Source: Candidatus Nomurabacteria bacterium
GTDB taxonomy: Bacteria; Patescibacteriota; Minisyncoccia; Phycocordibacterales; UBA9973
DNA: 64,000 nucleotides
Direction of reading: 5' to 3'
Assembly: GCA_029288725.1 (NCBI GenBank)
Contig: JARIGS010000010.1
Location: 23,947 to 87,946 of the forward strand
The notes beneath the pieces are model-generated. The model was not told the origin of the DNA and ran no database searches. It was given only the letters and a program-made list of their open reading frames with translations. Position numbers and translations under genes: made by a program. Below, one piece after another: positions 1 through 16,659 of this stretch (the stretch's first letter is position 1; each line of letters begins with the position of its first letter).

Positions 1-934
1 AATTTCTTTCGGGAAATACTGAGAGTTTATCCTTTAATATGCAGATCTGCTCATTGTATTTTTTTATATAAGACTCTACATCTTTTGTTCTAACCACAAA
101 AATGCCTTTGTGTTTAATAGGAGTACGACATTCTTTGCATTCGCATGGCTCTGCTTTAATAAAATCGGGGTAAAGTTTAGAAGAAAAGTCGCATATCTCT
201 ATATTATTTCTATGAGAAAATTTTAAGGTTGTCTCATCAATATCAACATTATATTTTTTACACTTATCATGTATATACCCCTTTATATTACCGTCGATGT
301 ATCTCGAATTAATTTTTTCATAATGAGTGGTATAGGTGGTTTGTCTAGGATCTCCTACTAAAATGATGTTGCTCTTTGATTTAAATAAAAGCTGAATAAA
401 TTCTAAATCACTACCAGCTAGATCTTGTACTTCATCAATAAAAACTGAATTGTACACATCTTCAATTCTACTTAGTACAGAGCCCTCACTAAGATTGTCT
501 GCTTTTACAACAAATTTTGATATAACATTTTGAATTATCTTATTACCTAAGAAGTAATGATTTAAGACATCTTCTTCTTTGATATATATATTATCTTTAA
601 TCTTTTTCTCTTCTACATATTTTCTATATTCCGAATCCGGAAAGAAACCAATCTTTTTATATCTTAGACTATCGTTCATTACAGCTTTATATGGTCTGAC
701 GCCATTCTTCAACAAGAAAGTAAACCACTCTTCAACTAAAATATTTTCGGGTATGGAGTATGAACCGTTTTCTTTTTTATTTTTTTCTCTAATCTTTTTC
801 CTTATTTCCTCAGCATTAGACCTTGTGTAAGTTGTAATTAGAACTTTTTTATCTTTGAGTAAAAATGCTTGGCTTACTAGATAAGTCGTCTTCCCAGCAC
901 CAGCAGCGGCTATAACTAATGTATCTTTTGCCAT
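1..934 (-). CDS. gajB: UvrD/PcrA-like SF1 helicase, N-terminal part (gene continues beyond window start); GajB-like partner of the adjacent OLD-family ATPase
   Basis: Own translation of minus strand from ATG at 932-934: MAKDTLVIAAAGAGKTTYLVSQAFLLKDKKVLITTYTRSNAEEIRKKIREK. This gives helicase motif I (GAGKT) and Ia. The start lies 3 nt after the stop of 938..2554. It is absent from the ORF track because there is no in-window stop. Confidence 0.7.
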   Translation of the reverse strand, partial: MAKDTLVIAAAGAGKTTYLVSQAFLLKDKKVLITTYTRSNAEEIRKKIREKNKKENGSYSIPENILVEEWFTFLLKNGVRPYKAVMNDSLRYKKIGFFPDSEYRKYVEEKKIKDNIYIKEEDVLNHYFLGNKIIQNVISKFVVKADNLSEGSVLSRIEDVYNSVFIDEVQDLAGSDLEFIQLLFKSKSNIILVGDPRQTTYTTHYEKINSRYIDGNIKGYIHDKCKKYNVDIDETTLKFSHRNNIEICDFSSKLYPDFIKAEPCECKECRTPIKHKGIFVVRTKDVESYIKKYNEQICILKDKLSVFPERN

Positions 935-937
935 ATT

Positions 938-2554
938 TTATGAAACAAAATTAATTGCCTCAGTTATATATTTAGGATATACAATCTTTTCCTTTGTGGT
1001 AAAAATAGCTAGTGCACACTCAGTTTTATTTGCTCTCATATAGGACAACAGATCATCTGGTGTTTTCTTATCTGTTCCAAATATCTTATTTAAAATCTCA
1101 AGACTGTTATAAGCTAAAAGTAATGGCTCCAGTGTATTATTATTGTAATCTTCCATACTTCCTGTATATGGCGTATTTTCTTCAAAAAACACCTTGATAT
1201 CCTGTGTCTCTTTAGCCAACTCTTCCCTTAAAGTATTTCTGCTGTCTATATTGGAATCAACATCAATGACAAGAGCAATCTTCTTGTTCAGATGTTTTGC
1301 AATTTCTATGTATCTCTTATATGTATTATTAACAGAAATAACCTCAATTCCATTATTTATTGGCAATACTCCATCATGTGTATCCATATAAGCTCTTTGT
1401 ACAACAAGCTCATCAGCATCACCTTCAACTAAGATTGCTTTATTGCACAGTACAATTCTCAGGGTATCGTATCCTGGTAATTTTTTAAAAAAGTCTTTCA
1501 CGTCTTCTTTTAAGTCATTGAAGGCTACTGGTTCCTCATTGCCCAATAAAATTATATGATCAAGGCCCAATTTATTTGCTACGAAACTACTGTGCGAAGT
1601 AACCAAGATTTGCTTTCCTGTGCACTCATTCTCTATCTCGTTAATAAGAACATTCAGGTTAGTATGTGAGAGGTGGTTTTCTGGTTCTTCTATCAGTACA
1701 ACTGTTGAGCCCTGTGCTTTAGGTCCTGATACGGCAAAAATAGTTTTTATTATTGACTGTCTACCTTTACCAATATAACTAAAGGGTATTTTTTTGAAAT
1801 ATATTGAAAGATGCGCATCCCAAGAATTTTTAGCTGAAGGATCAACGGAAACCGTTATGTCTTTATCTTTTATACTATCCGACAACTTGTCATGCACTTG
1901 ATGTTTACTAAATTCATCCTTGAGCTTTCTATGGGCTTGAGCAGCAAGGAGTTTGTCACTTGAAGCAAGGTCTGACTTAATTTTTTTAGCAATCATTAGT
2001 TCTGAAGTGTCCTGGAAATTTGAACTAGTATCGACCATTACAGTTTTTATTGGAAGGGTTAATCTTACTTGTGAGTTGCCAGAAAATTGTGTTAATTCAA
2101 TATCGTAAAGTTCTAAAGGTAATGACTCTAGTAGGCTTGGATTATTTAAGAGCTCGGTGTAATTACTCCTACACTCTTCATCCATGGCAATCTGAAAATA
2201 AAATCCTTTTGCGGTTTTTGACAACAGGTAATTATTCGAACCCTTTAGGTTATCGGGGGCGTCGTCTGATAAAAAAACCTCAATCCTTATTATTGGTGGA
2301 TCAATCTTTTCTCCATCCTTAACCTTTGTTAAATATTCATTAACAATATCGGTATTGAAAAGAAACTGGTTAATTTTTTCCTTAGTTAAATAAATACCGT
2401 TAATGTAACCTGACAAAACGAGATTGACTGCCTCTAATACTGTTGTCTTTTTGGTTTCATTATCTCCGACAATAATATTAATACCGGAGTTCATATTAAG
2501 GTCTAGACTTTTATATCCCTTAAAGTTTTCAATATGGATCTTTGAAATATGCAT
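938..2554 (-). CDS. gajA: OLD-family ATP-dependent endonuclease (N-terminal AAA_15/21-type ATPase plus C-terminal Toprim); GajA-like
   Basis: N-terminus IHIENFKGYKSLDLNMNSGINIIVGDNETKKTTVLEAV (P-loop). C-terminus ILVEGDADELVVQ ... ALVIDVDSN (Toprim E/DxD). 538 aa, immediately followed by a UvrD-like helicase, the class-2 OLD/Gabija arrangement. Confidence 0.75.
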   Translation of the reverse strand: MHISKIHIENFKGYKSLDLNMNSGINIIVGDNETKKTTVLEAVNLVLSGYINGIYLTKEKINQFLFNTDIVNEYLTKVKDGEKIDPPIIRIEVFLSDDAPDNLKGSNNYLLSKTAKGFYFQIAMDEECRSNYTELLNNPSLLESLPLELYDIELTQFSGNSQVRLTLPIKTVMVDTSSNFQDTSELMIAKKIKSDLASSDKLLAAQAHRKLKDEFSKHQVHDKLSDSIKDKDITVSVDPSAKNSWDAHLSIYFKKIPFSYIGKGRQSIIKTIFAVSGPKAQGSTVVLIEEPENHLSHTNLNVLINEIENECTGKQILVTSHSSFVANKLGLDHIILLGNEEPVAFNDLKEDVKDFFKKLPGYDTLRIVLCNKAILVEGDADELVVQRAYMDTHDGVLPINNGIEVISVNNTYKRYIEIAKHLNKKIALVIDVDSNIDSRNTLREELAKETQDIKVFFEENTPYTGSMEDYNNNTLEPLLLAYNSLEILNKIFGTDKKTPDDLLSYMRANKTECALAIFTTKEKIVYPKYITEAINFVS

Positions 2555-2658
2555 GGCTGATTTGGGAATATTTAGCTGAAATCGTATACCTTATGGTATC
2601 ACAAGATCTTATGAATTGACGCTTTTGATTATTACAGGAAAATGGCTATATTAAGATA

Positions 2659-3360
2659 ATGATGATTGAGATAAGCAACAGGGTTTTTAAGACCAAAAAG
2701 AGTGCTGAGGAGTTTATTCAAGACATACTCTATAAATATCCCTTAAATCAAAGTTTGACCGGAGAGGATCTAGTTTTTGTATGTGGTATGCTTGAGCTTC
2801 ATCCTGATAAGGACGTGAAAATAGGGGTCGGGGTCAGCTCAATTATTATTGAGTCTGATACTGAATTCAATAAGACAAGACACTTTTCTGTAGTCAGAAC
2901 CGACGGTTCAATCGTCGATTTTAGTTTTAAGAAATGCTTGTCGCCAAACTTGAATGAGCCGATAAAATTGTTTCGCTCATGTGCTAGACGTGCCATTGCA
3001 AACCAGTGCTTGTCTTTCAGAGATGAATTCTTTCATAAAGAGCAGAACCTAGATACAAAAGTTCCATGTGCGATCACAGGGGTTTTGATTGATAAAAATA
3101 ATTGTCATGTTGATCACATCCACCCCGAAACATTCGATAAGATCATATTAGATTTTATTGCTGCAAATAATATTAATGTTTCCGAGATTAAATTCATCGA
3201 AGCTCAAAATGGCATAGGTAGAGTATTTGCAGATGATACTTTAAAGGATAGTTTTTCTAAATATCACAAAAGTGTTGCTAAACTACAGGTCGTATCGCCT
3301 GTGGCTAATTTAAAGCAGAAAAAAAGTAAAAACGTAGCATACAAAAACAGCTCAAAATGA
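2659..3360 (+). CDS. HNH-like nuclease-motif protein (paralog 1), unknown N-terminal domain; stand-alone copy of the RT-coupled protein at 14900..15568
   Basis: 233 aa; CAITGVLIDKNNCHVDHIHPETFDKI matches HNH core HxDHIxP. ~70% identical to 14900..15568. Own promoter TTGATT-16-TATATT (~2624-2651); terminator hairpin at the 3' end. Confidence 0.6.
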   Translation: MMIEISNRVFKTKKSAEEFIQDILYKYPLNQSLTGEDLVFVCGMLELHPDKDVKIGVGVSSIIIESDTEFNKTRHFSVVRTDGSIVDFSFKKCLSPNLNEPIKLFRSCARRAIANQCLSFRDEFFHKEQNLDTKVPCAITGVLIDKNNCHVDHIHPETFDKIILDFIAANNINVSEIKFIEAQNGIGRVFADDTLKDSFSKYHKSVAKLQVVSPVANLKQKKSKNVAYKNSSK

Positions 3361-3369
3361 GCTGTTTTT
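3342..3369 (+). terminator. Rho-independent terminator (ACAGCTC-AAAAT-GAGCTGT + T5) overlapping the stop of 2659..3360
   Basis: Perfect 7-bp stem, 5-nt loop, T-run 3365-3369. Confidence 0.7.
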
Positions 3370-3400
3370 GTATGCTACTCGTGCTAGCACGAGACGGTGA
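3369..3400. repeat. 32-nt direct repeat copy A (TGTATGCTACTCGTGCTAGCACGAGACGGTGA). Candidate att/boundary repeat containing the 16-nt perfect palindrome CTCGTGCTAGCACGAG.
   Basis: 30/32 identical to 16515..16546. It is followed by a decayed copy of the tRNA-Glu 3' half (GAGATAGAACC vs GGGAATCGAACC). Confidence 0.6.
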
Positions 3401-3496
3401 GCCTTCTCGAGATAGAACCTTTCGGTTCATTGCCCCATAAGCTCCGTTTTTAATACTTTGATAAAAAATACCGACCCTTCTCGTGCGTAGCAAAAT

Positions 3497-3534
3497 AGTG
3501 ACAAAAGTGACACAGGGTCGAGTATAAAGTGACA
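3497..3534. promoter_or_regulatory. Three direct repeats of (A)AAGTGACA at 3497, 3506 and 3528; possible arm-type or regulator binding sites near the island end
   Basis: atAGTGACAaaAGTGACAca...aaAGTGACAgt read directly. Confidence 0.25.
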
Positions 3535-3724
3535 GTCGTGTGTCCTTATTTCATAAGAGAGTGAGACATCCTGAGACAGGGAAAAACATTTTTCAATTCA
3601 TGAAGAACTTGATCCTATTCTTGAACTTATAGCTAATGAGCAGCGAAAAATTGAAGGGATGCGGGAGTAAACTTGAAAAAATTTCACACAAACCGACCTA
3701 TACGATAGGCGGTTTTTTTGATAT

Positions 3725-3758
3725 AAAAAAGCCTAAACAGTTTTACTGTTTAGGCCTT
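3725..3758 (-). terminator. Terminator for the minus operon 4035..5657 / 3777..4019 (AGCCTAAACAGT/ACTGTTTAGGC stem flanked by A/T runs)
   Basis: 11-bp perfect stem, T-run on minus strand. Confidence 0.65.
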
Positions 3759-3776
3759 GGATATTAGTTTAATGGC

Positions 3777-4019
3777 TCACCCGATCTTTTTCTTCATCGA
3801 ATGGCCGGTGTTTGTTGTAGCATTGTTTCCCGAAATTTGAGCGATTGTTATAGCGCTCCATTTATAAAACTCATCGAGCGAGCCGATAAGTTCAGGGTTT
3901 TGTTGCAACAATGCTGCAATGTTGTCTTCATGCTGGTCAGCATAGACTGCGATTTTTTGAGCTCCTTCAGAAAGTTTTTTGAATCCTTCCTCGTCAGCCC
4001 AGTTTCTGTCCTTTTTCAT
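3777..4019 (-). CDS. hypothetical 80-aa protein, co-oriented 15 nt downstream of the transglutaminase-like gene
   Basis: ORF with terminator just downstream; no recognisable motif. Confidence 0.4.
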   Translation of the reverse strand: MKKDRNWADEEGFKKLSEGAQKIAVYADQHEDNIAALLQQNPELIGSLDEFYKWSAITIAQISGNNATTNTGHSMKKKIG

Positions 4020-4034
4020 AACGTTTGAATTTGT

Positions 4035-5657
4035 TTAAAGAAATCTTTTGGAAAGCCTGTGTTTGGATGGGAGCTTGCGGATTGCTTCCGCAGCCGCCTG
4101 TGCAAGCTCTGGATCATCTTTTTCTGGAACCATAGCGTTGTGAAGCGTGGTTTGACAGAAACAATAATCCAAAATGAAAGAGCTGCTACCTGCAACACGG
4201 TGATCTATTGCTAAAGAATTTAAAGCAGCTATTGCGACATGGTGATAGTTATCCGCTCCAAAGTGAGCCTCTGAGTGAGTGATGATGCCGGTATCGTTCC
4301 AGTGGTCATTGATAGTATCTAACGCTAGACAATGATAGTACGTGTACAGGCAGTCTTTCTTCTTTTGCAGAAAATGCTCAGGGTCATTCAAAACATCATT
4401 CAGCAAGCTATTGCTCGGCCCAAGTAACATGTCGGATGCGGTGTTGATCTTAAAAATTTTATCAATACCTGAAGGAAACTTCTCGCCTGATCCTTCTTCA
4501 AAAAGAAGATCAAACTCACCGCTATCTACAAAGGCTTCAACGATCTTTACCAGGTCTGTAATTGGCTGTAAAAGAACTTCCATCTTTTTAGAGCGAACCA
4601 TATAACCATTAAATATATCAGTAATATGCTGAACGCCCTGCTCAAGCTGCAATGGGGCACTCCCTATCACGCTCAACCCTGGCAACACATCTCTGTATTT
4701 GGAAATTTTTCGAACAATTTCCTCCATATCCCATTCTTGCGAAAGGATACCCCAGTTGAGTGAATTGGAATCAATAATTACCCATCTTCCGTCCCTCACC
4801 TGTATGACAGGGCAAACGTGAAATGAGTGCATCATATCATCCAGATCTCCAATCCTTATTCCTGCTTCAAGGCTATCCATAAACTCTGGATCAGGAAATG
4901 TGATGGAGCGTGCTTCAATGTCTTTTTTAATTTCAGAAGCTTTCTTTTGCCTGAGATCATCCAAAACATCCCGAGCAGTTTTGTTAGGAAGCATGACTAC
5001 CGTTTTAGCTCCTACCATCTCTGCAAATGCCAGTATCATTTGTGTTTTGCCCTGACAGTTTGCACGGTTGTCACTTTTGTTCCATTTCCCATACCCTAGG
5101 GGAAAAACGCTATCGAAGCCGTATCGGCTATTTCTTATTTCGATCTTACGTCTAAATTCAGCAAAAAGCTCTTTAGACGATATGGTCGTTTTTTCGCGTT
5201 GATCCTCGGTATGGAACAGATAGTACAGTTTTTTCGTAAGCTCAACCTGTTCGTCGGCGGTTGCAGATTTCCATTCTTTGGCAATCTGTTTTGCCTCGTC
5301 TGGCAAATTTTTCTTTGCAGCAGTAACGAGAGCCTTTCCTAACCCTCCGATCATTGCCCTCATCTCAATCCCATGACCATATTTAGAATGGGTATTAGAA
5401 GATTCAATAAGTGCCTGTTTTTCAGGATAAGAGTTTAGCAGCACACCAGATACTAAGTGCCCGGCTCGCAGCATTTTACCTTCATCGGTATGCTCAGGGT
5501 ATTTCTCAAAAAGCAGTTTCTGGTTTTTGAGCAAAGAAGTGTAGATTTTTGACCTCTTGAATGAGGTAAGATTTACTCCACACCCTTGTGTGAGCGCAAA
5601 ATCAAATAGTTCTTTAATATTCATGTTAATGTGCTTTTGGTTAAAATTTTTACTCAT
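4035..5657 (-). CDS. 540-aa protein with transglutaminase-like (papain-fold) Cys-His-Asp core
   Basis: NCQGKTQMILAFAEM (Cys) ... MMHSFHVCPVIQVRDGRWVIIDSNS (H..W..D pattern), with C-H-D spacing typical of transglutaminase-like cysteine peptidases. Confidence 0.45.
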   Translation of the reverse strand: MSKNFNQKHINMNIKELFDFALTQGCGVNLTSFKRSKIYTSLLKNQKLLFEKYPEHTDEGKMLRAGHLVSGVLLNSYPEKQALIESSNTHSKYGHGIEMRAMIGGLGKALVTAAKKNLPDEAKQIAKEWKSATADEQVELTKKLYYLFHTEDQREKTTISSKELFAEFRRKIEIRNSRYGFDSVFPLGYGKWNKSDNRANCQGKTQMILAFAEMVGAKTVVMLPNKTARDVLDDLRQKKASEIKKDIEARSITFPDPEFMDSLEAGIRIGDLDDMMHSFHVCPVIQVRDGRWVIIDSNSLNWGILSQEWDMEEIVRKISKYRDVLPGLSVIGSAPLQLEQGVQHITDIFNGYMVRSKKMEVLLQPITDLVKIVEAFVDSGEFDLLFEEGSGEKFPSGIDKIFKINTASDMLLGPSNSLLNDVLNDPEHFLQKKKDCLYTYYHCLALDTINDHWNDTGIITHSEAHFGADNYHHVAIAALNSLAIDHRVAGSSSFILDYCFCQTTLHNAMVPEKDDPELAQAAAEAIRKLPSKHRLSKRFL

Positions 5658-5873
5658 ATTACAATTAATATTTGACTATGTCAATATCATTATACAAAGC
5701 AACCAAAGGGTATTTACATTAACGCGGCTACAAAAAAAATGGCACCGCTCGGGATGAGGGTGCCATTTTACTTTTAGTTAATTTCGCCAGTTCACGACTA
5801 GCCTGGAACTTTTTTATTGACACATTGCTTATTAATGATATGGTATTTACATCGTTCATTTAAACAACCCAAT

Positions 5874-6326
5874 ATGAAAAAGCACTTACTGTTCGCCCTT
5901 ATTACCGCTTTCGTTATCACTGCCGTATACAGCATTGTTACCCATGGCTTCATGGTCAGTCACCACATGCTGGTACGACCCACTGATCCCGATTACAAGA
6001 AAGCGGAATGGTCCATGCTGATCCTCGTATTCGCATCGGCACCATTCGTCATGGTCATGGACTTCCTGACCTTGGTAGAAGTTACCAGAGGAAGTACGGA
6101 AAAATGGATATTGAATAAATACCATTATGATGTTACCAACCCGCTCAAGATGAGATTCATGCTTTTCTTGGCACGGTATCAATTTTTCCTGTACCTGATC
6201 ATGATCATACCACTACTGTACACGCTGATCAGCGGCTTCTGCAGCTTCCTAAGCTTTCTGGCATTCATCTTTGAACGGCCGATCGACTGGATTCGCTGGC
6301 AATGTTTCTGCATTAGCCTCTGGTAA
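5874..6326 (+). CDS. hypothetical multi-pass membrane protein
   Basis: MKKHLLFALITAFVITAV...; hydrophobic segments; terminator at 6349-6372. Confidence 0.45.
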   Translation: MKKHLLFALITAFVITAVYSIVTHGFMVSHHMLVRPTDPDYKKAEWSMLILVFASAPFVMVMDFLTLVEVTRGSTEKWILNKYHYDVTNPLKMRFMLFLARYQFFLYLIMIIPLLYTLISGFCSFLSFLAFIFERPIDWIRWQCFCISLW

Positions 6327-6404
6327 ATTGGCCACACACATTTTTACAAATCGCTCCTCGGAGCGGTTTTTTCATTTTACCATTGATCTTGCTATGATTA
6401 TGGA

Positions 6405-6764
6405 ATGGAAAAACTCTACATCACTCGAATCACTCTGCACGTAAAGGGCTTTCGACCTACGACGACGTTTTCAAAGGTCAAAGAAAAGGGCATTTTATAC
6501 AGCGCGCTTTCTTCAGATTCGTTCAATAAGCCGATCACTGGCAATGACAATATCAGAAACTTGCGCATCGACTTGCCGGAAGATCTCATGGAGAAGGTGC
6601 GAGCAGGGACACTCGAAATAATGATCCCGAAGGAAGGCCTTCAGATCTATGCAGGCAGAGACACGATTGAAAAGGCTCAGCATGAAATGGACAAGGAGCG
6701 CAATATGTTGATTCACAAGAGCCGCGGCAAAACTTGGCGCGCCGATGATAAAGGTGTAAAATAG
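6405..6764 (+). CDS. hypothetical protein
   Basis: ORF only; no motif. Confidence 0.3.
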   Translation: MEKLYITRITLHVKGFRPTTTFSKVKEKGILYSALSSDSFNKPITGNDNIRNLRIDLPEDLMEKVRAGTLEIMIPKEGLQIYAGRDTIEKAQHEMDKERNMLIHKSRGKTWRADDKGVK

Positions 6765-6915
6765 AACCACAACCGAATATTACAGGTGTTGCCCCGCACG
6801 ATAGTGCCATGCTCGCTTCGTAGAGAAAGCCCAGAAAATTAGGAATAGTTTTTTGAGTCTTCATCGCGAAGCGAGCTTTCTTGTTCTAATTACAAAAATT
6901 AAACAAGCAACTATC

Positions 6916-8193
6916 ATGAACAACATCATATGGCATACGGAAGTACGCCAAGTATCTAGTCTCCACTCATGGAGTGAAAACCCCCGCAAGCTCTCAAAAA
7001 GTGCGTTTGCAAAGTTAGTCGGGCGCATTCAGGAGCGCGGATTTCATTCAGTACTAGTGATTGATACCGATGACACCATCCTCTCTGGCAATCAGCGAAA
7101 GACCGCATTGGAGCATCTTAAGATTGAAGAAGTCACTGTATTGATACCAAACCGAAAGCTCTCAGAGGAAGAGCGGAAGAAGATCGCCCTTGAAAGCAAT
7201 CTTAACGATGGGGAATGGAATTACGAGATGCTCAAGTCCTTCGATATCGATCTTGTTACCGACATCGGCTTCGACATGTCCGAGCTTTCAAAGTTTTGGG
7301 ACAAGGATCTAGAAGTAACAGAAGAAGAATTCGACGAGGAAAAGGAAATTAAGAAGATAAAAGTTCCCGTAACTGAGTTCGGAGATCTCATTATCATGGG
7401 CGGTCATAAGCTGCTCTGCGGAGACTCGACTGATCCAGAAGCGGTAAAGAAACTGTTCGGAAACGACAAGGCGGCGGTCATCTACAGTGATGCAATTTTT
7501 AACATTGGCTTGAGCTATGACGGCGGCGTGGGCAACAAATCTAGTTACGGCGGTACGGTTGACGACAACAAGTCAGCTGAGGAATATAAAGAATTTATCA
7601 AGAAAACGATTGTGAATGCACTGTCTGTCTCAAAGGATGATGTTCACTGCTTCCAATGGTGCGATGAGGCCTGGATCTGGGTTTTTCAAACCATATACAA
7701 CGAGCTCGGTATCAAGAACCGACGAGTGAATGTATGGTTGAAGAACAACGCATCGCCCGTGGCCCAAGTGGCATTTAACAAGGCACTTGAATTCTGCGTC
7801 TATGGCACGAAGGGATCTCCATTTCTGTCTCCATTATACACCAATCTTAACGAGATCATGAATCCAGAACTCGGAACAGGAAACGATCTCTATGAGCAAG
7901 TGACAAATGTCTGGGCGCACAAGCGTCTGCCAAGCAATCAGCTCGAACATCCAACGAGCAAGCCGCCAGAACTTCACAAGAAGGCACTGCTCCGCTGTTC
8001 AAAGCCAGGAGACATCATCTTCGACTCCTTCTCGGGATCGGCGAGTACAATGATCTGCGCAGAACAGTTGAAACGAAAAGTATATTCCTTGGATATAGAA
8101 GGCGTCTTCTGTGACTTGGCCATTCGCCGTTACGAAAAGTTCACAGGAAAGAAAGCAGAAATAATCAAACACTTCTATGAAAAAGAATACTAA
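6916..8193 (+). CDS. ParB-like N-terminal nuclease domain fused to a beta-class DNA (N6-adenine/N4-cytosine) methyltransferase
   Basis: VLVIDTDDTILSGNQRKTALEHL (ParB box). HPTSKPPELHKKAL (motif IV) then IIFDSFSGSASTMI (motif I FxGxG). ATG at 6916; the ORF track starts earlier at a TTG. Confidence 0.75.
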   Translation: MNNIIWHTEVRQVSSLHSWSENPRKLSKSAFAKLVGRIQERGFHSVLVIDTDDTILSGNQRKTALEHLKIEEVTVLIPNRKLSEEERKKIALESNLNDGEWNYEMLKSFDIDLVTDIGFDMSELSKFWDKDLEVTEEEFDEEKEIKKIKVPVTEFGDLIIMGGHKLLCGDSTDPEAVKKLFGNDKAAVIYSDAIFNIGLSYDGGVGNKSSYGGTVDDNKSAEEYKEFIKKTIVNALSVSKDDVHCFQWCDEAWIWVFQTIYNELGIKNRRVNVWLKNNASPVAQVAFNKALEFCVYGTKGSPFLSPLYTNLNEIMNPELGTGNDLYEQVTNVWAHKRLPSNQLEHPTSKPPELHKKALLRCSKPGDIIFDSFSGSASTMICAEQLKRKVYSLDIEGVFCDLAIRRYEKFTGKKAEIIKHFYEKEY

Positions 8194-8593
8194 GAAGAAC
8201 GAGTTCATTGATCAGCTCCGCAAGATTCCCATTGTCTTGGTCGCCTGCGAAAAGACATCGATTGCTCGCAACACGGTATACCGTTGGCGCAAGGAGGATG
8301 AATCGTTCGCAACGGCTATGGATGACGCGTTGCTCGAAGGCGAAGCACTGATCAATGACATGAGCGAGAGTCAACTGCTTACCATGATCAAGGAAAAAAA
8401 CTGGTCGGCGATCAGCTTCTGGCTTCGTCATCGCAATCCGAAGTTCAGAGACAAGGTTGAGATAACTCATTCCACGAAGGATAAGGAGCTTACCAACGAA
8501 CAAAAGGCATTGATTGAAAAAGCGCTACAACTCACTACCTTCTCGCAAGACAAGGCACTTGAAATATTATCAGGCACTACAAATGAAAAATAA
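8177..8593 (+). CDS. putative phage terminase small subunit (HTH)
   Basis: SIARNTVYRWRKEDESFATAMDDAL HTH typical of TerS N-termini; overlaps the MTase gene end and the TerL gene start. Confidence 0.5.
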   Translation: MKKNTKKNEFIDQLRKIPIVLVACEKTSIARNTVYRWRKEDESFATAMDDALLEGEALINDMSESQLLTMIKEKNWSAISFWLRHRNPKFRDKVEITHSTKDKELTNEQKALIEKALQLTTFSQDKALEILSGTTNEK

Positions 8594-10109
8594 ATATATG
8601 AATATATTAAATAACAAGGAGCTGATCGAAACTATTATCAAGGATCGTGAGGTGCGCCGCGCACTGACCAAGGAGAGCCATGAGTATTTCTTCCCCGTAT
8701 ATTTTGGGGAGTATATAAAATATCCCAGTGCGCCCCTTCATACGGAAATGATCAAGATCACGGAAAACACTGACGAGCAGTTGTCGGTGGTGGTGGCATT
8801 TCGTGGTTCTGCAAAATCCACAATCTTCTCTTTGTCATATCCCATCTGGGCGATATTGGGAAAGCAACAAAAGAAGTTCGTGCTCATAGTGTCCCAGACA
8901 CAGGTGCAGGCTCGGCAACTCCTCACCAACATCAAAGAAGAGTTGACGAACAATCACCTGCTGAAGAGCGACCTCGGACCATTTGAAGAGCCAGACGACG
9001 AATGGCGTGCGGCTTCCATTGTGCTTCCGCAGTACGGTGCCCGTATCATGGTCGCATCAAGCGAGCAAAGCATTCGTGGCATACGCCATAAAAGCTATCG
9101 TCCAGATCTCATCATTCTCGACGACATCGAGGACATTGCCTCCTCCAAGACAAAAGAGGGTCGCGACAAGACGTTTCGATGGCTTGCAAGCGAGGTGCTT
9201 CCTGCGGGAGATGTCACAACGAAAGTCATTCTTATTGGAAACCTTGTTCATGAGGATTCAGTCATCATGCGTCTTCGGCAAAAGATTAAGCTTAAGGAAA
9301 TCAAAGGAAGCTTCTCTATGTATCCGATCATGGATGAGCAGGGAGTGAGCTTGTGGCCCGGGAAATTCCCGACACCAGAATCGTTGAAAAACGAGGAGAC
9401 GAAAGTGCTCAATCCGCAGGCATGGTTTCGCGAGTATCTGCTTAAAATCATTCCCGAGGAAGGACAGGTAGTCTTTCCAGAATGGTTTCAATATTACGAC
9501 ACCTTGCCAACCAAACATCAGCGCGCCTACCGTTGCACGTATTCGGCGGTTGACTTGGCAATATCTCAGAAAGACAGTGCTGACTATACGACTGTTGTCA
9601 CGGCATATGTCTATGGGCGTGCGGACAAGATTCGCATATACATTCTGCCAAACCCAATCAACAAAAAGCTGTCATTTCCTGCACAAGTGGAAATGCTGAA
9701 AGGTCATGCAGCGATTGCTTTGCCGAATTCTTCCGACAAGCTTTTTGTTGAAAGCGTCGCATACCAAGACGCACTGCCGCAAATGCTCAAAACCCAAGGG
9801 GTGCATGCGATTGGCGTAAAGCCGCAAAATGACAAGCGCACACGCCTTGCACTGACGACTTCCTATATTCAATCGGGACGAGTGAAATTCCCCCAGAAAG
9901 GGTGCGAAGATCTCATTCAGCAACTGGTCGGTTTCGGTATTGAAAACCACGATGACCTTGCTGATGCATTTTCGTTGCTCATTCTGCAGATTGCGGAGCG
10001 ACATCTTAATGAGTCGACATGGATGATATGCTTCCTTGGTGGGTCAAGCTACGATAAGAACGGGACTATTTATTATGATGACTATATTGACGTGGAAACA
10101 GGAAAATAA
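8583..10109 (+). CDS. phage terminase large subunit (ATPase + RNaseH-like nuclease)
   Basis: Walker A AFRGSAKST, Walker B LIILDDIEDI, nuclease region SAVDLAISQKDSADYTTVV. ATG 8583 chosen (overlaps the TerS stop by 11 nt); alternative upstream start 8514. Confidence 0.8.
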   Translation: MKNKYMNILNNKELIETIIKDREVRRALTKESHEYFFPVYFGEYIKYPSAPLHTEMIKITENTDEQLSVVVAFRGSAKSTIFSLSYPIWAILGKQQKKFVLIVSQTQVQARQLLTNIKEELTNNHLLKSDLGPFEEPDDEWRAASIVLPQYGARIMVASSEQSIRGIRHKSYRPDLIILDDIEDIASSKTKEGRDKTFRWLASEVLPAGDVTTKVILIGNLVHEDSVIMRLRQKIKLKEIKGSFSMYPIMDEQGVSLWPGKFPTPESLKNEETKVLNPQAWFREYLLKIIPEEGQVVFPEWFQYYDTLPTKHQRAYRCTYSAVDLAISQKDSADYTTVVTAYVYGRADKIRIYILPNPINKKLSFPAQVEMLKGHAAIALPNSSDKLFVESVAYQDALPQMLKTQGVHAIGVKPQNDKRTRLALTTSYIQSGRVKFPQKGCEDLIQQLVGFGIENHDDLADAFSLLILQIAERHLNESTWMICFLGGSSYDKNGTIYYDDYIDVETGK

Positions 10110-10129
10110 TTCCGTTAATAATTGGCAAA

Positions 10130-10966
10130 TTAGTTATAGCTCGTAATGATTCCGCTACTGTCATAATAAACACAGCTTTCACTATAGTCAGACCCTGTCC
10201 AACAGGCCTGATACTGATTGCCAGTTCCATAGTTTGAGGTATGTACTGAGCTTGGGCTGCCCCATGCGGCGCGAACCATGTCTATGTCCATGCCGACTGT
10301 AATTTTATGGCTTGCAATGGTTGCACAGACATCCTTGCTCCAGTCAGGGTGCTTTTTGCACACCTTTCCCGCAGGACTGTTATCGTAGGCTGCTTGTACG
10401 GCCTTGTCTTCGGCTGTTTTGATAGCTTCTGCCTGGGCTTGCTGCAGGTCTTCGGTTGCCATTTGAGCTTTCTCCTGATCGGTATAGAGGCGAGTGATCG
10501 TAATAGTCTTCGTGTCAGTTTTGTCATTGTTCGTTGCGGCCACCATCACGGTATTCGTTTCCTTTGTCAGGCCAACTGATGAAGAAAACTTTCCATGCGA
10601 GACAACGGTGACATTTCCGTTGACGGTCACTGTTGCGGTGTACGGCTCGACCGATCCTTCAATGGTGGCGGAAGCCGACTGTATTGAGGCGTTGTCTGCG
10701 GGGCTGGTTATGACAATCGTTGGCGCTCGTTTGGCATACAAGTTAAGACCGGTGAGCATGATGCAAAGTGCCACGAGAGCCGCAGTCCATTGGACTTTTC
10801 CTTTTTGATGCATCGTGACGCTCTTCCAAACATATATTATCGCTATGAGTGGAAATGAGACGTACCAGTATATGAATGCGATCGGTACTACGACCACAAG
10901 TATGAGCAGGATGCTTATTATCTTGTGCTTGTGATAAAAGTCTTTCAGTTCTTCGTTAATGGTCAT
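10130..10966 (-). CDS. hypothetical membrane-anchored/exported protein (N-terminal TM, Cys-rich C-terminus)
   Basis: ILLILVVVVPIAFIYWYVSFPLIAIIYVW TM segments; long structured leader upstream. Confidence 0.5.
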   Translation of the reverse strand: MTINEELKDFYHKHKIISILLILVVVVPIAFIYWYVSFPLIAIIYVWKSVTMHQKGKVQWTAALVALCIMLTGLNLYAKRAPTIVITSPADNASIQSASATIEGSVEPYTATVTVNGNVTVVSHGKFSSSVGLTKETNTVMVAATNNDKTDTKTITITRLYTDQEKAQMATEDLQQAQAEAIKTAEDKAVQAAYDNSPAGKVCKKHPDWSKDVCATIASHKITVGMDIDMVRAAWGSPSSVHTSNYGTGNQYQACWTGSDYSESCVYYDSSGIITSYN

Positions 10967-10968
10967 AT

Positions 10969-11115
10969 TTTCTCTAGCGGGATTTAAATATGAGAGAAGC
11001 CCAGATATAACAAAAGGCTCCTCGCCATTGCGATGACCTTTCGGCCACCCATACCCGTTTCCAGATACGACCCGCTAGAGTGACTCTGACGAGGAGTCCT
11101 TTGTTCTCTAGCGGG
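10969..11115 (-). promoter_or_regulatory. Structured 5' leader of 10130..10966 with three copies of a 10-mer (CTCTAGCGGG 10972-10981, its reverse complement 11071-11080, CTCTAGCGGG 11106-11115)
   Basis: Read directly. The proximal copy sits 5 nt from the start codon, and the middle copy can pair with either outer copy. Confidence 0.35.
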
Positions 11116-12351: not shown

Positions 12352-13671
12352 ATGGAAACGACAGCTATCGGCAAGATTCCGAGCAACATATCCATTTCGG
12401 AGACGAGGGTCAGATACTGCCTGTATGCCCGAAAATCGACCGAGTCGGACGAGCAGCAGGCACTGTCCATAGACTCGCAGATCAAGGAGATGACGGATAT
12501 TGCGGAGCGACTAAAACTCAACGTGGTCATGGTGAAGCGAGAGTCACATTCCGCAAAGGAGTCTGGACAGCGACCAGTGTTCAAGGAATTGCTGGAAGAA
12601 ATCAGAGACGGAAAATGCGACGGTATTCTCACATGGGCACCAGACCGACTGAGCAGAAATGCTGGCGATCTTGGAACCGTTGTCGATCTCATGGATCAAA
12701 AGAGGCTGATTCACATTCAGACGTACGGACAGACATTTTCCAATTCACCAAATGAGAAATTTCTGCTGATGATATTATGTTCACAAGCGAAGCTTGAGAA
12801 TGACAATAAAAGCATCAACGTGAAGCGTGGGCTTCGGGCAAGAGTCGAGATGGGACTCTGGCCGTGCAGACCGCCGACTGGATATACAAAATACAAGCGT
12901 ATTGATCAGAAGTGCGAGTCAGTGATTGATCCAGTGCGAGCGCCAGTTATCAAGCAGATGTTTGAGAAAATTGCATATGACGGCTGGAGCGGAAGAAAGC
13001 TGTACCATTGGCTGAAGGACGACATCAAGTTCAGGACGGAAAACAACATGCCATTGAGTCTCGGCAATCTCTACAAGATTCTGGAGAACCATTTCTATTA
13101 CGGACGATTCGAGTTCCCGAAGCAGTCTGGCAACTGGTACAACGGCGCGCATGAGCCGATCATTACGAAAGACCTGTTTGACCTTGTTCAGGAAAGGATA
13201 AAGAGTCAGATACTTCAGCCACGGTCAGAGCAAAAGGAGTTTGCCTTCACCAAGATCATGACCTGCGGACTGTGCGGCTCTGGCATCACTGCAGACGAGA
13301 AGTTCAAGAAGCAGAAGAACGGCAACGTCCACCGCTATGTCTATTACAAGTGCACCCGTGTCAAGGATTCGCAGTGTCCCAGCGGATACATCAACGAAGA
13401 AGAACTCGTTACCCAGTTGCAGGATCTGATGGACGACGTTGAGATACAGACGGTGCCAATGCGGGAGAAGATAACGGCGGAGGTACACCGCTTCAAGAAG
13501 TTTGAGCAAATGCTACTGGGAACAAAGACGACAGTGTCGGTGAAGGATATCGATATCCGCAACTATGCCAAGTTCATTCTGCTTGAGGGAACAATGGACG
13601 AGAAGCGAGAGTTTCTAAGGTGTTTGAAGAGCGAGATCGTGTTGAATAACAAAAGGGTTTCATTAAAATAA
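12352..13671 (+). CDS. large serine recombinase (resolvase/invertase catalytic domain + recombinase domain + zinc ribbon)
   Basis: YARKSTESDEQQALSIDSQ (catalytic Ser), DRLSRN, GLWPCRPPTGYT, CGLCG...YYKC. Confidence 0.85.
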   Translation: METTAIGKIPSNISISETRVRYCLYARKSTESDEQQALSIDSQIKEMTDIAERLKLNVVMVKRESHSAKESGQRPVFKELLEEIRDGKCDGILTWAPDRLSRNAGDLGTVVDLMDQKRLIHIQTYGQTFSNSPNEKFLLMILCSQAKLENDNKSINVKRGLRARVEMGLWPCRPPTGYTKYKRIDQKCESVIDPVRAPVIKQMFEKIAYDGWSGRKLYHWLKDDIKFRTENNMPLSLGNLYKILENHFYYGRFEFPKQSGNWYNGAHEPIITKDLFDLVQERIKSQILQPRSEQKEFAFTKIMTCGLCGSGITADEKFKKQKNGNVHRYVYYKCTRVKDSQCPSGYINEEELVTQLQDLMDDVEIQTVPMREKITAEVHRFKKFEQMLLGTKTTVSVKDIDIRNYAKFILLEGTMDEKREFLRCLKSEIVLNNKRVSLK

Positions 13672-13688
13672 TGTGGTATAATAGAAGC

Positions 13689-13895
13689 CACTTGTAAATT
13701 GAAAAGCCACCCATTTTTTTATCTTTTTATAAAAAAGATTTCAAAGATAAAATGTCCCGATCATGACGGCACTGAGCTGGCTACCGCCTTAACAGTACAG
13801 TCGGAATCGTATCATTGATTTCTTTGTCCTTTGAGAGATTAGTCCTTAGAGAGGTAGGTAGTCCGCTATCAACAATGACAGTTTTACAAGTAGTT
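13689..13895 (+). ncRNA. candidate retron non-coding RNA (msr-msd) upstream of the RT
   Basis: Extended -10 TGgTATAAT at 13674-13682 predicts a TSS near 13689. Inverted repeat ACTTGTAAA (13690-13698) / TTTACAAGT (13883-13891) resembles a1/a2. Internal hairpins ATCTTTTT-ATA-AAAAAGAT (13721-13739) and GGGGTGG-N12-CCACCCC (13897-13922). Boundaries are approximate. Confidence 0.35.
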
Positions 13896-14010
13896 CGGGG
13901 TGGTTTTGTTATTGTCCACCCCACAGTTAGTGTATGGAATTATTCGTAATTGCATTACTGCTTATTTTCCTCACAATTCGTGAGTCGAATAAGTAAGGGC
14001 TAAGACCTCA

Positions 14011-14907
14011 GTGGATAATGAAAAATTATATTCCTCAAAGAAATACCTCCTAACGCTCCTTGGAATAAAGGAAAACTTTCTGTACCCCAATTTCTCACAA
14101 AAATACAAAGAAAAGAATATCCCCAAAAAGAATGGCGGCATTCGAAAAATTAAACCACCGCAATTTAACCTCAAGAAACTCCAAAAGGTTGTCCTTGAAA
14201 AAATACTCCGTATACATCCTCAGTTGCCATGCGTGTACGGTTTATCAAAGGATAGGAACATCACCAGTAATGCAAAACTTCACCGGAAAAATTTTGATAA
14301 CCAGTTAGTCGTTTTGGACATTGAAAACTTTTTTCCAAGCATAACAAAAAAGCAAATAGTTCAAGTATTTAAGAAAATCGGTTTCAATAAAGAAAATTCT
14401 TTGATACTTGCGAAAATTTGCACCGTTGATGATTGCTTACCCCAAGGCGCACCAACCAGTCCGTACCTCGCTTCTCTCGTTTGCATTAAACTGGATAAAG
14501 AAATATACCAATACTGTAAAAAACATAATTTTGAATACACAAGATATTTTGATGACATTAGTGTCTCAGGGAAAAACATACTGCCCAAACATATTAAAGA
14601 TATAGAAAACGCTATCCGTAAACACGGTTTTACCTGTAACGCAGAGAAGAAGAATTTTTATGACACAGGTAAGGATAAGATTATAAATGGTGTACTAATT
14701 ACTGAAAATGGGCTATCAGTAACAAGTTCTTACAAAAAGGAAATTGAAGATATTTATAATGCATTAATCAATAGTCGGACTATTGAAAACAAAAGGTCAT
14801 TTTCGGGCAAGTTTGGATTTTATTTACACATAAACAGGAAAGAAGCCGTTGCTTTTTTAGAAGGAATGAAAAAAGGAATAACCTCGCTAGCGTATAACCA
14901 TGATTGA
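14011..14907 (+). CDS. retron-type reverse transcriptase
   Basis: VLDIENFFPSITKKQIVQVF, LPQGAPTSPYLASLVCIKLD and YTRYFDDISVS align closely with Ec86 RT blocks NIDLEDFFPSL / LPQGAPSSPKLANLIC / YTRYADDLTLS. ~298 aa; no maturase or X domain. Confidence 0.85.
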   Translation: MDNEKLYSSKKYLLTLLGIKENFLYPNFSQKYKEKNIPKKNGGIRKIKPPQFNLKKLQKVVLEKILRIHPQLPCVYGLSKDRNITSNAKLHRKNFDNQLVVLDIENFFPSITKKQIVQVFKKIGFNKENSLILAKICTVDDCLPQGAPTSPYLASLVCIKLDKEIYQYCKKHNFEYTRYFDDISVSGKNILPKHIKDIENAIRKHGFTCNAEKKNFYDTGKDKIINGVLITENGLSVTSSYKKEIEDIYNALINSRTIENKRSFSGKFGFYLHINRKEAVAFLEGMKKGITSLAYNHD

Positions 14908-15568
14908 AATAGATAGCAAGATTTTCAAAACCAAAAAGGATACCGAGGATTTTATTCGTACGATACTTTACAAGTACCCCCTAAATGAGCCACTGATCGG
15001 AGAAGACTTGGCTTTTGTCTCTAGCCTGCTTGAACTTCACCCCGACAAGGACACGAAAATAGGAGCTGGAGTCAGCTCAATCATCACTGAAGCCGACAGC
15101 GAGTTCAATAAAACCAGACATTTTTCTATTGTTAGAGTGGACGGTACGATCGTCGATTTTAGTTTTAAAAAATGTTTGTCACCAGTACCGAATGAACCTA
15201 TCAAATTGTTCCGATCTTGTGCAAGGCGTGCAGTTGCAGATCAAGCTCTGTCTTTCAGGGACAAGTTTTTTCTTGAGAATCAGAATTCCGATGGAAATGT
15301 CGCATGTGCGCTTACTGGTGTTTTGATTAATAAAAATAATTCACACATTGATCATATCGCCCCAGCTACGTTCGACAAGATTGTTTTGGATTTTATTGCT
15401 ATAAACAACATTGATGTAAGTAAGGTCAAATTTATTGAATCGCTAAACGGGATAGGTAGAGTATTTGCTGATAACAATTTAAAAGATACCTTTTCTACAT
15501 ATCACAAAAATGTTGCCATGCTACAGGTCGTATCGCCTGTGGCCAATTTAAAGCAGAAAAAGAAGTAA
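14900..15568 (+). CDS. HNH-like nuclease-motif protein (paralog 2), translationally coupled to the RT (ATGATTGA overlap)
   Basis: CALTGVLINKNNSHIDHIAPATFDKIV (HxDHIxP). 8-nt overlap with the RT stop. ~70% identical to 2659..3360. Confidence 0.6.
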   Translation: MIEIDSKIFKTKKDTEDFIRTILYKYPLNEPLIGEDLAFVSSLLELHPDKDTKIGAGVSSIITEADSEFNKTRHFSIVRVDGTIVDFSFKKCLSPVPNEPIKLFRSCARRAVADQALSFRDKFFLENQNSDGNVACALTGVLINKNNSHIDHIAPATFDKIVLDFIAINNIDVSKVKFIESLNGIGRVFADNNLKDTFSTYHKNVAMLQVVSPVANLKQKKK

Positions 15569-16514: not shown

Positions 16515-16546
16515 ATGTATGCTTCTCGTGCTAGCACGAGATGGTG
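16515..16546. repeat. 32-nt direct repeat copy B (TGTATGCTTCTCGTGCTAGCACGAGATGGTGA), overlapping the last 6 nt of tRNA-Glu
   Basis: 30/32 identity to 3369..3400. Confidence 0.6.
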
Positions 16547-16615
16547 ACCCTACGGGGAATCGAACCCCGATTTAAGCCTTGAGAAGGCTCCGTCCTAACC
16601 GTTAGACGATAGGGC
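16541..16615 (-). tRNA. tRNA-Glu (anticodon CUC), CCA encoded
   Basis: Reverse complement GGCCCTATCGTCTAACGGTTAGGACGGAGCCTTCTCAAGGCTTAAATCGGGGTTCGATTCCCCGTAGGGTCACCA. 7-bp acceptor stem with one G-U, T-loop GGTTCGATTCC, anticodon loop TTCTCAA. Confidence 0.85.
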
Positions 16616-16659
16616 CAAGTGCTGCATAACTATAATGAACGATGGTGTATAATGCAAGC

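What the first reader, a model, noticed from the sequence alone, without database searches (positions are those of the whole stretch)
2659..3360. Second stand-alone copy of the RT-coupled HNH-like protein, sitting next to Gabija
2659-3360 encodes a ~70%-identical paralog of 14900-15568 with the same domain order and HVDHIHP motif. It has its own promoter and terminator and no RT. The last ~50 nt of the two genes are almost identical at DNA level (…CTACAGGTCGTATCGCCTGTGGCYAATTTAAAGCAGAAAAA…), much more conserved than the rest, which suggests gene conversion or a shared functional 3' element. Two copies, one RT-coupled and one free, both inside a defence/mobile region, argue that this is a modular effector family that can act alone or with a retron.
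Basis: seen in the sequence. Interest (0 to 1): 0.65.

Follow-up and report, generated by a model that had tools for sequence, protein, structure and literature searches.

The report
HamC-like nuclease gene beside Gabija
The gene at 2659-3360 is a real, old paralog of the retron-linked gene, and both belong to the little-studied HamC/DCL family (a nucleic-acid-binding domain plus an HNH-like nuclease domain), which in related genomes sits at the same end of tRNA-Glu-integrated elements next to at least five different anti-phage systems.

Summary
Copy A (2659-3360) and copy B (14900-15568) are 75% identical in protein and 74% in DNA, with the same two domains. A has no RT and lies head-to-head with gajA. 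The motif is HVDHIHP in A but HIDHIAP in B. A's 11-residue tail comes from a 1-nt indel in an A-run.

The near-identical 3' end is mostly explained by a family-wide C-terminal peptide (…VVSPxANLKQKKK). Extra synonymous identity is weak (p about 0.03) and not family-wide.

The protein is not a retron-specific effector. It is a HamC / "DCL family" protein: DUF3223/DeCL plus a divergent HNH-like domain with invariant D-H…H…N. HamC is known only as the uncharacterised third gene of type II Hachiman.

In close relatives (62-83% identical) the same gene abuts a retron RT, Gabija, Hachiman, an Hhe-like helicase-nuclease or an ABC-3C ATPase. It is usually downstream of a conserved large serine recombinase and ends at a conserved hairpin block beside tRNA-Glu. 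A and B are the end genes of two tandem elements (dS about 1.9, so not a recent duplication).

The best reading is a partner-independent accessory nuclease. The main rival is a conserved flank or backbone gene of a defence hot spot.

The parts
2659..3360 (+). Copy A: HamC/DCL-family gene, 233 aa. The probable true start is 2662, because relatives begin MIEI.
   Evidence: ORF. 75% identical to copy B. Pfam DUF3223 and PADLOC HamC over the full length. AF2 model with mean pLDDT 87.
2722..2940 (+). DUF3223/DeCL domain (aa 22-94).
3055..3327 (+). Divergent HNH-like domain (aa 133-223). HVDH lies at 3106-3117 and N217 at 3307-3309. About 55 residues are inserted between them.
3319..3325 (+). A7 run where a 1-nt indel, relative to all relatives, replaces the …QKKK* ending by an 11-residue tail.
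   Evidence: DNA alignment of A and B. All 17 relatives end in KKK or KK. The tail has pLDDT below 50.
3334..3378 (.). Hairpin H1, a perfect 20-bp inverted repeat. It is terminator-like on the minus strand. It is conserved downstream of the gene in L001, L020, L021 and L023, and in diverged form in L008/L018.
3378..3400 (.). Hairpin H2 (CTCGTGCTAGCACGAG), followed by GGTGA. GGTGA is the reverse complement of a tRNA-Glu 3' end, so this is a tRNA remnant and a probable old attachment junction.
   Evidence: The same block runs into an intact tRNA-Glu at window 16525-16616 and in L023. In L001, L018 and L021 it is followed by foreign DNA.
938..2554 (-). gajA, divergent from copy A across a 104-nt gap.
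   Evidence: PADLOC GajA 2e-165. Pfam AAA_15 and OLD-like TOPRIM. 81% identical to L017 GajA.
2..934 (-). gajB, N-terminal 311 aa. The gene runs off the window.
   Evidence: PADLOC GajB 1.2e-83. Pfam UvrD-helicase.
14900..15568 (+). Copy B: HamC/DCL-family gene, 222 aa. It overlaps the RT gene by 8 nt.
14011..14907 (+). Retron-type reverse transcriptase.
   Evidence: PADLOC RT_III-A 8.9e-69 and RT_II-A 5e-67. NCBIfam retron St85 family at 199 bits, below the cutoff of 235. 83% identical to the RT of L021/L022, which is also followed by a DCL gene.
13741..13915 (+). Putative retron ncRNA (msr-msd), closed by a long-range helix. This is inferred.
   Evidence: The region is 79% conserved with L021/L022 and RNAalifold predicts a closing helix. 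Only two distinct sequences are available, so covariation is not informative.
12352..13671 (+). Large serine recombinase at the upstream side of the cargo slot.
   Evidence: Pfam Resolvase + Recombinase + Zn_ribbon_recom. Identity is 81% to L017, 75% to L020, 72% to L016 and 91% to the L022 fragment.
16516..16616 (-). Partial H1 right arm, then H2, then an intact tRNA-Glu(CTC) at 16542-16616. This is the second direct copy of the block found after copy A.

Best explanation
Copy A encodes a HamC / 'DCL family' protein. It has an N-terminal DUF3223/DeCL domain. In eukaryotic homologues this fold binds RNA. The C-terminus is a divergent HNH (His-Me finger) domain with a Cas9-like D-H…N catalytic set.

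It is the conserved last gene of an integrative element inserted at the 3' end of tRNA-Glu. The slot upstream of it, downstream of a large serine recombinase where that end is readable, carries interchangeable defence systems.
- In the first element of the window, the slot holds Gabija, followed by copy A.
- In the second, phage-like element, it holds a retron, followed by copy B.

The most likely function is a partner-independent accessory nuclease. The DeCL domain would recognise a nucleic-acid species produced or exposed when the neighbouring system acts. Candidates are unwound or nicked DNA from helicase-nucleases such as GajAB, HamAB and Hhe, or the RNA-DNA msDNA of the retron. The HNH domain would then nick or cleave DNA, strengthening or completing the defence response.

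What is shown and what is inferred:
- Shown: family identity, domain fold, conserved catalytic residues, purifying selection, recurrent neighbourhoods and element architecture.
- Inferred: nuclease activity, the activating signal and cooperation with Gabija.
For: **Family and fold.**

**Catalytic residues.** They are invariant over 50 members at 30-50% identity.

**Family size.** The family has 527 clusters at E <= 1e-30, almost all 210-250 aa.

**Selection.** dN/dS is 0.06-0.19 with saturated dS, whatever the partner.

**Neighbourhoods of close relatives**:
- Retron RT: window B, L021, L022.
- Gabija: window A, L017.
- Hachiman: L008/L018/L019, L024.
- Hhe / PDC-S37-like helicase-nuclease: L020.
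- DUF2326 / PDC-M68B ABC-3C: L016.

**Operon-like packing when co-directional.**
- 8-nt overlap with the RT in the window.
- 3-nt gaps in L020 and L021.
- 8-nt overlap in L024.

**Independent support in other phyla.**
- HamA-HamB-DCL operons occur on Agrobacterium, Rhizobium and Bartonella plasmids.
- The PADLOC paper reports 379 type II Hachiman loci.
- DCL also sits beside UvrD-type or other helicases and large ATPases.

**RNA binding by the DeCL domain.** This has been shown for AtDomino.

**Recurrence of the Gabija layout.** GajA is 81% and DCL 74% identical between the window and L017.
Against: - No experiment on any HamC/DCL protein was found.
- Gabija, Hachiman and Hhe already carry their own nucleases, so a need for an extra one is not obvious.
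- The DCL tree ignores the partner.
  - The Hhe-linked L020 and Hachiman-linked L024 proteins are 83% identical.
  - The two Hachiman systems (L018 and L024) share only about 25% identity.
  - This fits a conserved flank as well as it fits a generic cofactor.
- 6 of 18 plasmid contexts show no obvious partner.
- Copy A may be slightly damaged by the C-terminal frameshift.
Confidence: 0.5

Rival explanations
1. The gene is a backbone or flank gene of the integrative element rather than a defence partner. The HNH-like protein would serve the element itself, for example by nicking at or near the conserved hairpin/att block for excision, replication, transfer or packaging. Alternatively it merely persists as the homologous-recombination anchor across which defence cargos are swapped.
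For: - The serine recombinase (73-81% identity) and DCL (62-83%) are conserved while the genes between them are replaced wholesale.
- DCL is always at the tRNA-proximal end, directly before the conserved H1/H2 block.
- Window element 2 carries a terminase and a ParB-like methylase, and related recombinases lie in IMG/VR contigs.
- Distant homologues sit in phage replication modules.
- Streptomyces linear plasmids have the order TpgA1, helicase, DCL.
- The best structural match for the C-terminal domain is a phage nicking endonuclease.
Against: - HamA-HamB-DCL operons exist on plasmids in other phyla without any adjacent serine recombinase.
- The gene is translationally coupled to cargo genes.
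- More distant relatives of the recombinase (57-61% identity) lack DCL.
- Copy B has lost direct contact with the hairpin block yet is intact and under purifying selection.
Confidence: 0.22
2. The gene is an autonomous single-gene defence or a selfish free-standing HNH gene. It accumulates in defence islands but has no functional tie to its neighbours.
For: - Copy A has its own intergenic region and hairpin.
- 6 of 18 plasmid contexts and several metagenomic ones (L009, L010, L015) show no recognisable partner.
- Homologues occur in phages.
- Frameshifted or truncated copies occur (L001, L011, L012), as expected for dispensable genes.
Against: - Overlapping or 3-nt-spaced reading frames with upstream cargo genes occur in four loci.
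- The HamAB-DCL gene order is conserved across phyla.
- The position is fixed rather than scattered.
Confidence: 0.15
3. The protein is a retron effector family that was duplicated within this genome. One copy lost its RT, and gene conversion or a shared functional 3' element keeps the ends identical.
For: - RT-DCL pairs recur in the window, L021 and L022.
- Copy B is the only candidate effector of that retron.
- 40/41 nt are identical at the 3' end, and the scan test gives p 0.029.
Against: - dS between A and B is about 1.9, and B is closer to the proteins of L017 and L021 than to A.
- Most relatives have no RT, and the one RT relative (65% identity) with a readable downstream flank has no DCL.
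- There is no family-wide synonymous conservation at the 3' end.
- A has a recurrent Gabija partner.
Confidence: 0.08

Closest known systems
HamC of type II Hachiman (PADLOC; NCBI 'DCL family protein', Pfam DUF3223)
   Same: - Full-length match to the PADLOC HamC models.
- Same DUF3223 + C-terminal domain architecture and the same size.
- Close relatives (L018, L024) really do sit with HamA and HamB.
   Different: - There is no HamA or HamB in this window.
- Copy A pairs with Gabija and copy B with a retron RT.
- These pairings, and those with Hhe-like and ABC-3C systems, were not found in the searchable literature.
HNH partner nucleases of defence systems, such as PtuB of Septu and of type I-A retrons
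   Same: - A small HNH-type protein is encoded next to a retron RT or an ATPase.
   Different: - There is no PtuA-type ATPase partner.
- The HNH core is split by an insertion of about 55 residues.
- The N-terminal DeCL domain is absent from PtuB.
Defence hot spots at integrase-proximal ends of prophages and satellites, and SCC-like cassette carriers with Ccr-type serine recombinases
   Same: - Conserved flanks surround interchangeable defence cargo.
- Integration is at a tRNA end, with tandem accretion.
- The recombinase is most similar to CcrB/XisF-type large serine recombinases.
   Different: - One flank is itself a defence-associated nuclease gene.
- The hosts are probably Patescibacteria. 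This is inferred from the source names of relatives only.
DeCL domains of plant DCL/Domino proteins, Pol IV/V largest subunits and ciliate La protein Mlp1
   Same: - The N-terminal fold and sequence motifs are homologous (HP…KIG.GV…R.DG…DFS..KC).
   Different: - The eukaryotic proteins lack the HNH-like domain and act in RNA biogenesis or silencing, not in phage defence.

Membership tests
HamC / DCL family (DUF3223 + HNH-like) | N-terminal DUF3223/DeCL domain | tested here: met
HamC / DCL family (DUF3223 + HNH-like) | Full-length similarity to curated HamC profiles | tested here: met
   PADLOC PDLC00202, E 6.8e-35, aa 3-222 against profile positions 5-233 of 245.
HamC / DCL family (DUF3223 + HNH-like) | Conserved C-terminal residues (C…xDH…P…YH…N-L) | tested here: met
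   D152, H153 and H203 are invariant, and C137, P156, N217 and L218 are at least 90% conserved, in 50 diverse members. All are present in copy A.
Type II Hachiman system | Adjacent HamA (DUF1837) and HamB helicase | tested here: not met
   tblastn with two HamA/HamB pairs gives no hit in the window. The neighbours of copy A are GajA and GajB.
Gabija system (neighbour of copy A) | GajA ATPase-TOPRIM plus GajB UvrD-type helicase in one operon | tested here: met
   GajA 2e-165. GajB 1.2e-83, but truncated by the window start. A third gene is not part of the published definition.
Retron (for copy A) | Adjacent retron RT and ncRNA | tested here: not met
   The only RT in the window is at 14011-14904. 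No Rfam match lies downstream of A.
Retron (for copy B) | Retron-clade RT | tested here: inconclusive
   PADLOC RT_III-A 8.9e-69. NCBIfam retron St85 at 199 bits is below its cutoff of 235.
Retron (for copy B) | msr-msd ncRNA with flanking inverted repeats, and msDNA production | tested here: inconclusive
   A conserved upstream region has a predicted long-range helix, but only two distinct sequences are available. msDNA production cannot be tested here.
HNH / His-Me finger nucleases | Beta-beta-alpha-metal fold | tested here: inconclusive
HNH / His-Me finger nucleases | Catalytic His after Asp, plus a downstream metal-ligand Asn or His | tested here: met
   HVDH at aa 150-153 and N217. These are conserved family-wide.
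HNH / His-Me finger nucleases | Metal-dependent nuclease activity | not testable with these tools
   This needs biochemistry.
tRNA-targeting serine-recombinase integrative element | Large serine recombinase plus repeated tRNA-end block at the boundaries | tested here: met
   The recombinase domains are present. Two direct copies of the H2-GGTGA block lie at 3378-3400 and 16525-16547, the second fused to tRNA-Glu. For element 1 the recombinase would lie off the window, by analogy with L017.

The most novel reading that the evidence does not exclude
The HamC/DCL protein is a universal plug-in nuclease that works with mechanistically unrelated sensors: Gabija, Hachiman, Hhe-type helicase-nucleases, ABC-3C ATPases and a retron. 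Its DeCL domain would read a common danger signal such as exposed single-stranded or RNA-DNA hybrid nucleic acid. A lineage of serine-recombinase elements in candidate-phyla bacteria keeps this nuclease fixed while swapping the sensor cassette in front of it.
Probability: 0.25. Interest if true: 0.75.

Novelty: new variant of a known kind. Interest (0 to 1): 0.55.

Why it matters
HamC is a catalogued but uncharacterised component of type II Hachiman. This window and its relatives show that almost the same protein is kept intact, under strong purifying selection, next to five different defence systems.

This gives a simple experimental handle. One can take one protein with several natural partners and ask whether it is a shared effector, a shared sensor or just a conserved flank.

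It also identifies a retron whose only candidate effector is a DeCL-HNH protein, which is not among the 13 published retron types. It points as well to a defence-cassette exchange platform at tRNA-Glu in poorly studied bacteria.

If the flank explanation is right, the finding is an ordinary prophage-end defence hot spot.

Tried and rejected
1. **A structured RNA or known ncRNA downstream of copy A.** An Rfam E-value scan of 3250-4100 gave only sub-threshold noise. The conserved block turned out to be a hairpin pair plus a tRNA-Glu 3' remnant.
2. **A family-wide functional DNA element in the last 50 nt.** Synonymous identity in the last 20 codons (0.60) is within the range of the rest of the gene (0.43-0.65).
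3. **Strong gene conversion between A and B.** The longest-run test gives p 0.38 and the scan test only p 0.029. Other pairs show similar 3' rises.
4. **RT linkage as the rule.**
   - There is no RT in L001-L014.
   - There is none in 18 plasmid and phage contexts.
   - The 65%-identical RT relative (L036-L038) lacks DCL downstream. The 70% relative's contig ends too soon to tell.
5. **An attachment site inside the ORF**, suggested by 5'-truncated copies. L023 is simply cut by the contig start and has an internal stop. Only L001 is a true remnant.
6. **Full-length Foldseek against the PDB for the C-terminal domain.** Only the N-terminal 2K0M match was significant.
8. **Literature searches** for DUF3223, DeCL or HamC together with retron, Gabija or HNH. 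Nothing was found beyond the type II Hachiman definition.
9. **My first pattern searches for the downstream block** were mis-specified and found nothing. A corrected regular expression found it.

Full report
**1. The observation**

The ORF at 2659-3360 (+) encodes 233 aa. It aligns without gaps to the 222-aa product of 14900-15568, with 165/221 identities (75%, E 1e-127). DNA identity is 74%.

Both proteins carry Pfam DUF3223 at residues ~20-94. Both match PADLOC HamC profiles over their whole length.

The upstream neighbour on the other strand is GajA (938-2554, PADLOC 2e-165). It is followed by the first 311 residues of GajB, which runs off the window. The only RT in the window is at 14011-14904.

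Promoter-like hexamers in the 104-nt gajA/copy-A gap are weak and not in excess.

The 'terminator' is a perfect 20-bp hairpin at 3334-3378 whose T-tail is on the minus strand.

**2. The 3' end**

The quoted stretch is 40/41 identical, and the last 60 nt are 90% identical.

The peptide …VVSPxANLKQKKK is conserved in all 18 close relatives. N217, L218 and neighbouring residues are conserved in 50 diverse members. Most of the DNA identity is therefore protein constraint.

The remaining synonymous signal is weak:
- Among same-residue codons, 58% are identical overall.
- 12 of the last 14 such codons are identical.
- The longest-run permutation test gives p 0.38, and a multi-window scan gives p 0.029.
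- Across eight full-length family members, synonymous identity in the last 20 codons is not raised.
- Several other pairs also show 85-88% identity in the last 60 nt.

A short conversion tract between A and B cannot be excluded but is not needed.

A's extra 11 residues arise from one missing base in an A-run (3319-3325) relative to every relative. This could be a real frameshift or a homopolymer error. The tail is predicted to be disordered.

**3. What the protein is**

*N-terminal domain.*
- By profile, it matches the C-terminal DeCL domains of the largest subunits of plant Pol IV and Pol V.
- A 2026 preprint shows RNA binding by this domain in AtDomino. Earlier work shows an RNA-chaperone-like role in Tetrahymena Mlp1.

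*C-terminal half.*
- It is confidently modelled (mean pLDDT 87).
- D152, H153 and H203 are invariant, and C137, P156 and N217 nearly so, across members at 30-50% identity.
- I read this as an HNH core (β-strand HVDH, then the helix ANLKQKKK) split by an insertion of about 55 residues. This is an inference.

*Size and naming of the family.*
- The family has 527 clusters at E <= 1e-30 in 1.84 billion representatives.
- NCBI calls its members 'DCL family protein'.
- PADLOC calls them HamC, the extra gene of type II Hachiman. Its function is stated to be unknown.

**4. Neighbourhoods of close relatives (62-83% identical)**

| Partner | Loci |
|---|---|
| Retron RT | window B, L021, L022 |
| Gabija (GajB-GajA, divergent) | window A, L017 |
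| Hachiman | L008/L018/L019 (divergent, 19-nt gap); L024 (co-directional, 8-nt overlap with a small gene) |
| 1629-aa Hhe / PDC-S37-like helicase-nuclease | L020 (3-nt gap) |
| DUF2326 / PDC-M68B ABC-3C system | L016 (convergent) |
| No recognised partner | L015 |
| 5'-deleted remnant | L001 |

Further points:
- More distant homologues in viral contigs lie near replication genes and have no PADLOC hits.
- 17 plasmid contexts and 1 phage context were sampled:

| Context | Count |
|---|---|
| HamA-HamB-DCL | 4 |
| UvrD-type helicase next door | 2 |
| TpgA1-helicase-DCL | 2 |
| Large AAA ATPase-DCL | 2 |
| 498-aa hypothetical-DCL | 1 |
| No evident partner | 6 |
| Phage (DCL followed by a 784-aa hypothetical protein; no evident partner) | 1 |
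| With an RT | 0 |

- The RT relative at 65% identity has no DCL gene downstream. The 70% relative's contig ends about 60 nt after the RT, so it is uninformative.

RT coupling is therefore a minority arrangement. Helicase or ATPase partners are the common theme.

**5. Element architecture**

*A conserved block downstream of the gene.* It consists of hairpin H1, hairpin H2 (CTCGTGCTAGCACGAG) and GGTGA. GGTGA is the reverse complement of the 3' end of tRNA-Glu.
- In L023, and at window 16516-16616, the block runs into an intact tRNA-Glu.
- After copy A, and in L001, L018 and L021, foreign DNA follows.

The window therefore holds two direct copies of the block, at 3378-3400 and at 16525-16547. 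Everything between them looks like a later insertion at the tRNA end. That stretch includes:
- a ParB-like methylase (6853-8193);
- a large terminase (8514-10109);
- a LOOT RNA;
- the serine recombinase;
- the retron;
- copy B.

*The upstream flank.* The serine recombinase before the retron has these identities:

| Compared with | Identity |
|---|---|
| Recombinase before Gabija in L017 | 81% |
| Recombinase before the Hhe-like gene in L020 | 75% |
| Recombinase in L016 | 72% |
| Fragment before the RT in L022 | 91% (89% over 110 aa by tblastn) |

*Where similarity breaks.* Nucleotide similarity between the window and L017 covers the recombinase and the DCL gene, but not the cargo between them.

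*The DCL tree ignores the partner*:
- B (RT-linked) is 79% identical to the L017 protein (Gabija-linked).
- L020 (Hhe-linked) is 83% identical to L024 (Hachiman-linked).
- The Hachiman proteins of L018 and L024 are only about 25% identical.

*Age and selection.* dS between A and B is about 1.9, and dN/dS is 0.06-0.19 for all pairs. A and B are therefore old, separately acquired and selectively maintained.

*Base composition.* GC is 33% for 1-3400 and 39.5% for 12301-16541, against about 46% for the rest of the window.

**6. Interpretation**

Family identity and element architecture are well supported. Function is inferred.

I favour a partner-independent accessory nuclease, for four reasons:
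- tight operon packing with cargo genes;
- conserved HamAB-DCL operons in other phyla that lack the recombinase;
- invariant catalytic residues;
- strong purifying selection.

The main rival is that the gene is a backbone or flank gene of the element, possibly acting at the hairpin/att block. In that case its association with many systems would be a by-product of cargo exchange. A stand-alone or selfish HNH gene is a further rival.

**7. Comparison and novelty**

The protein is a member of the HamC/DCL family, and all tested defining features are met.

The loci in this window are not type II Hachiman systems, because HamA and HamB are absent.

A retron whose only adjacent candidate effector is a DeCL-HNH protein does not appear in the 13-type retron classification.

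Pairings with Gabija, Hhe-like and ABC-3C systems were not found in the searchable literature.

Defence hot spots at integrase-proximal ends of prophages and satellites are a known phenomenon (my own knowledge). The platform itself is therefore a variant, not a new kind.

The host is probably a member of the Patescibacteria. I infer this only from the source names of the closest relatives.

Noticed in passing
window 11032-11154(-); L016 9585-9707(-); L020 636-766(-); L021 4494-4615(-): The LOOT RNA (Rfam RF03000, 61-93 bits) lies just upstream of, and divergent from, a large serine recombinase gene in four loci. One of these recombinases is only 23% identical to the others. LOOT may be an element-borne RNA linked to these recombinases.
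   Followed up: partly
window 3401-16541: The stretch between the two tRNA-end blocks looks like a small phage-like or satellite-like element.
- It carries a ParB-like N6/N4 methylase (6853-8193) and a large terminase (8514-10109).
- It carries an unannotatable 540-aa gene (4035-5657, minus strand) and an APH-type kinase (11232-12254, minus strand).
- The serine recombinase, retron and copy B follow.
- The methylase-terminase-recombinase order recurs in IMG/VR contig L047.
   Followed up: partly
L021 1930-3015: A 278-aa gene (weak TIGR02569 hit) is inserted inside the left arm of hairpin H1. It is flanked by the direct repeat AAGCATACAAAA, which suggests a further small insertion event at this hot spot.
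   Followed up: no
window 3401-3544; L015 7778-7921: The 144 nt that follow the tRNA remnant after copy A are 72% identical to the sequence directly upstream of the DCL gene in L015. They contain three AGTGACA repeats (about 3497-3540). This may be an element end or a protein-binding site.
   Followed up: no
L001 9983-10417; L011; L012 9977-10683: Decayed copies of the gene exist. L001 is a 5'-deleted remnant beside tRNA-Glu in a Patescibacteria MAG. L011 and L012 are frameshifted copies, and the L012 copy lies beside a four-tRNA cluster.
   Followed up: partly
L036-L038 (Candidatus Nomurabacteria contigs), RT at 6001-6867: Relatives of the window RT at 65% identity stand without any co-directional downstream gene. 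The usual effector of this RT clade is therefore unclear.
   Followed up: no
L041 and L045 (Streptomyces linear plasmids): DCL genes lie in the order terminal protein TpgA1, large helicase, DCL. This hints at a role near linear-replicon ends that is unrelated to phage defence.
   Followed up: no
window 16460-16490: A tRNA-like T-arm fragment (CACGAGTTCGATTCTC) lies just before the partial H1 block. It resembles the region next to tRNA-Arg in L017 (76% over 103 nt) and may be another integration scar.
   Followed up: no
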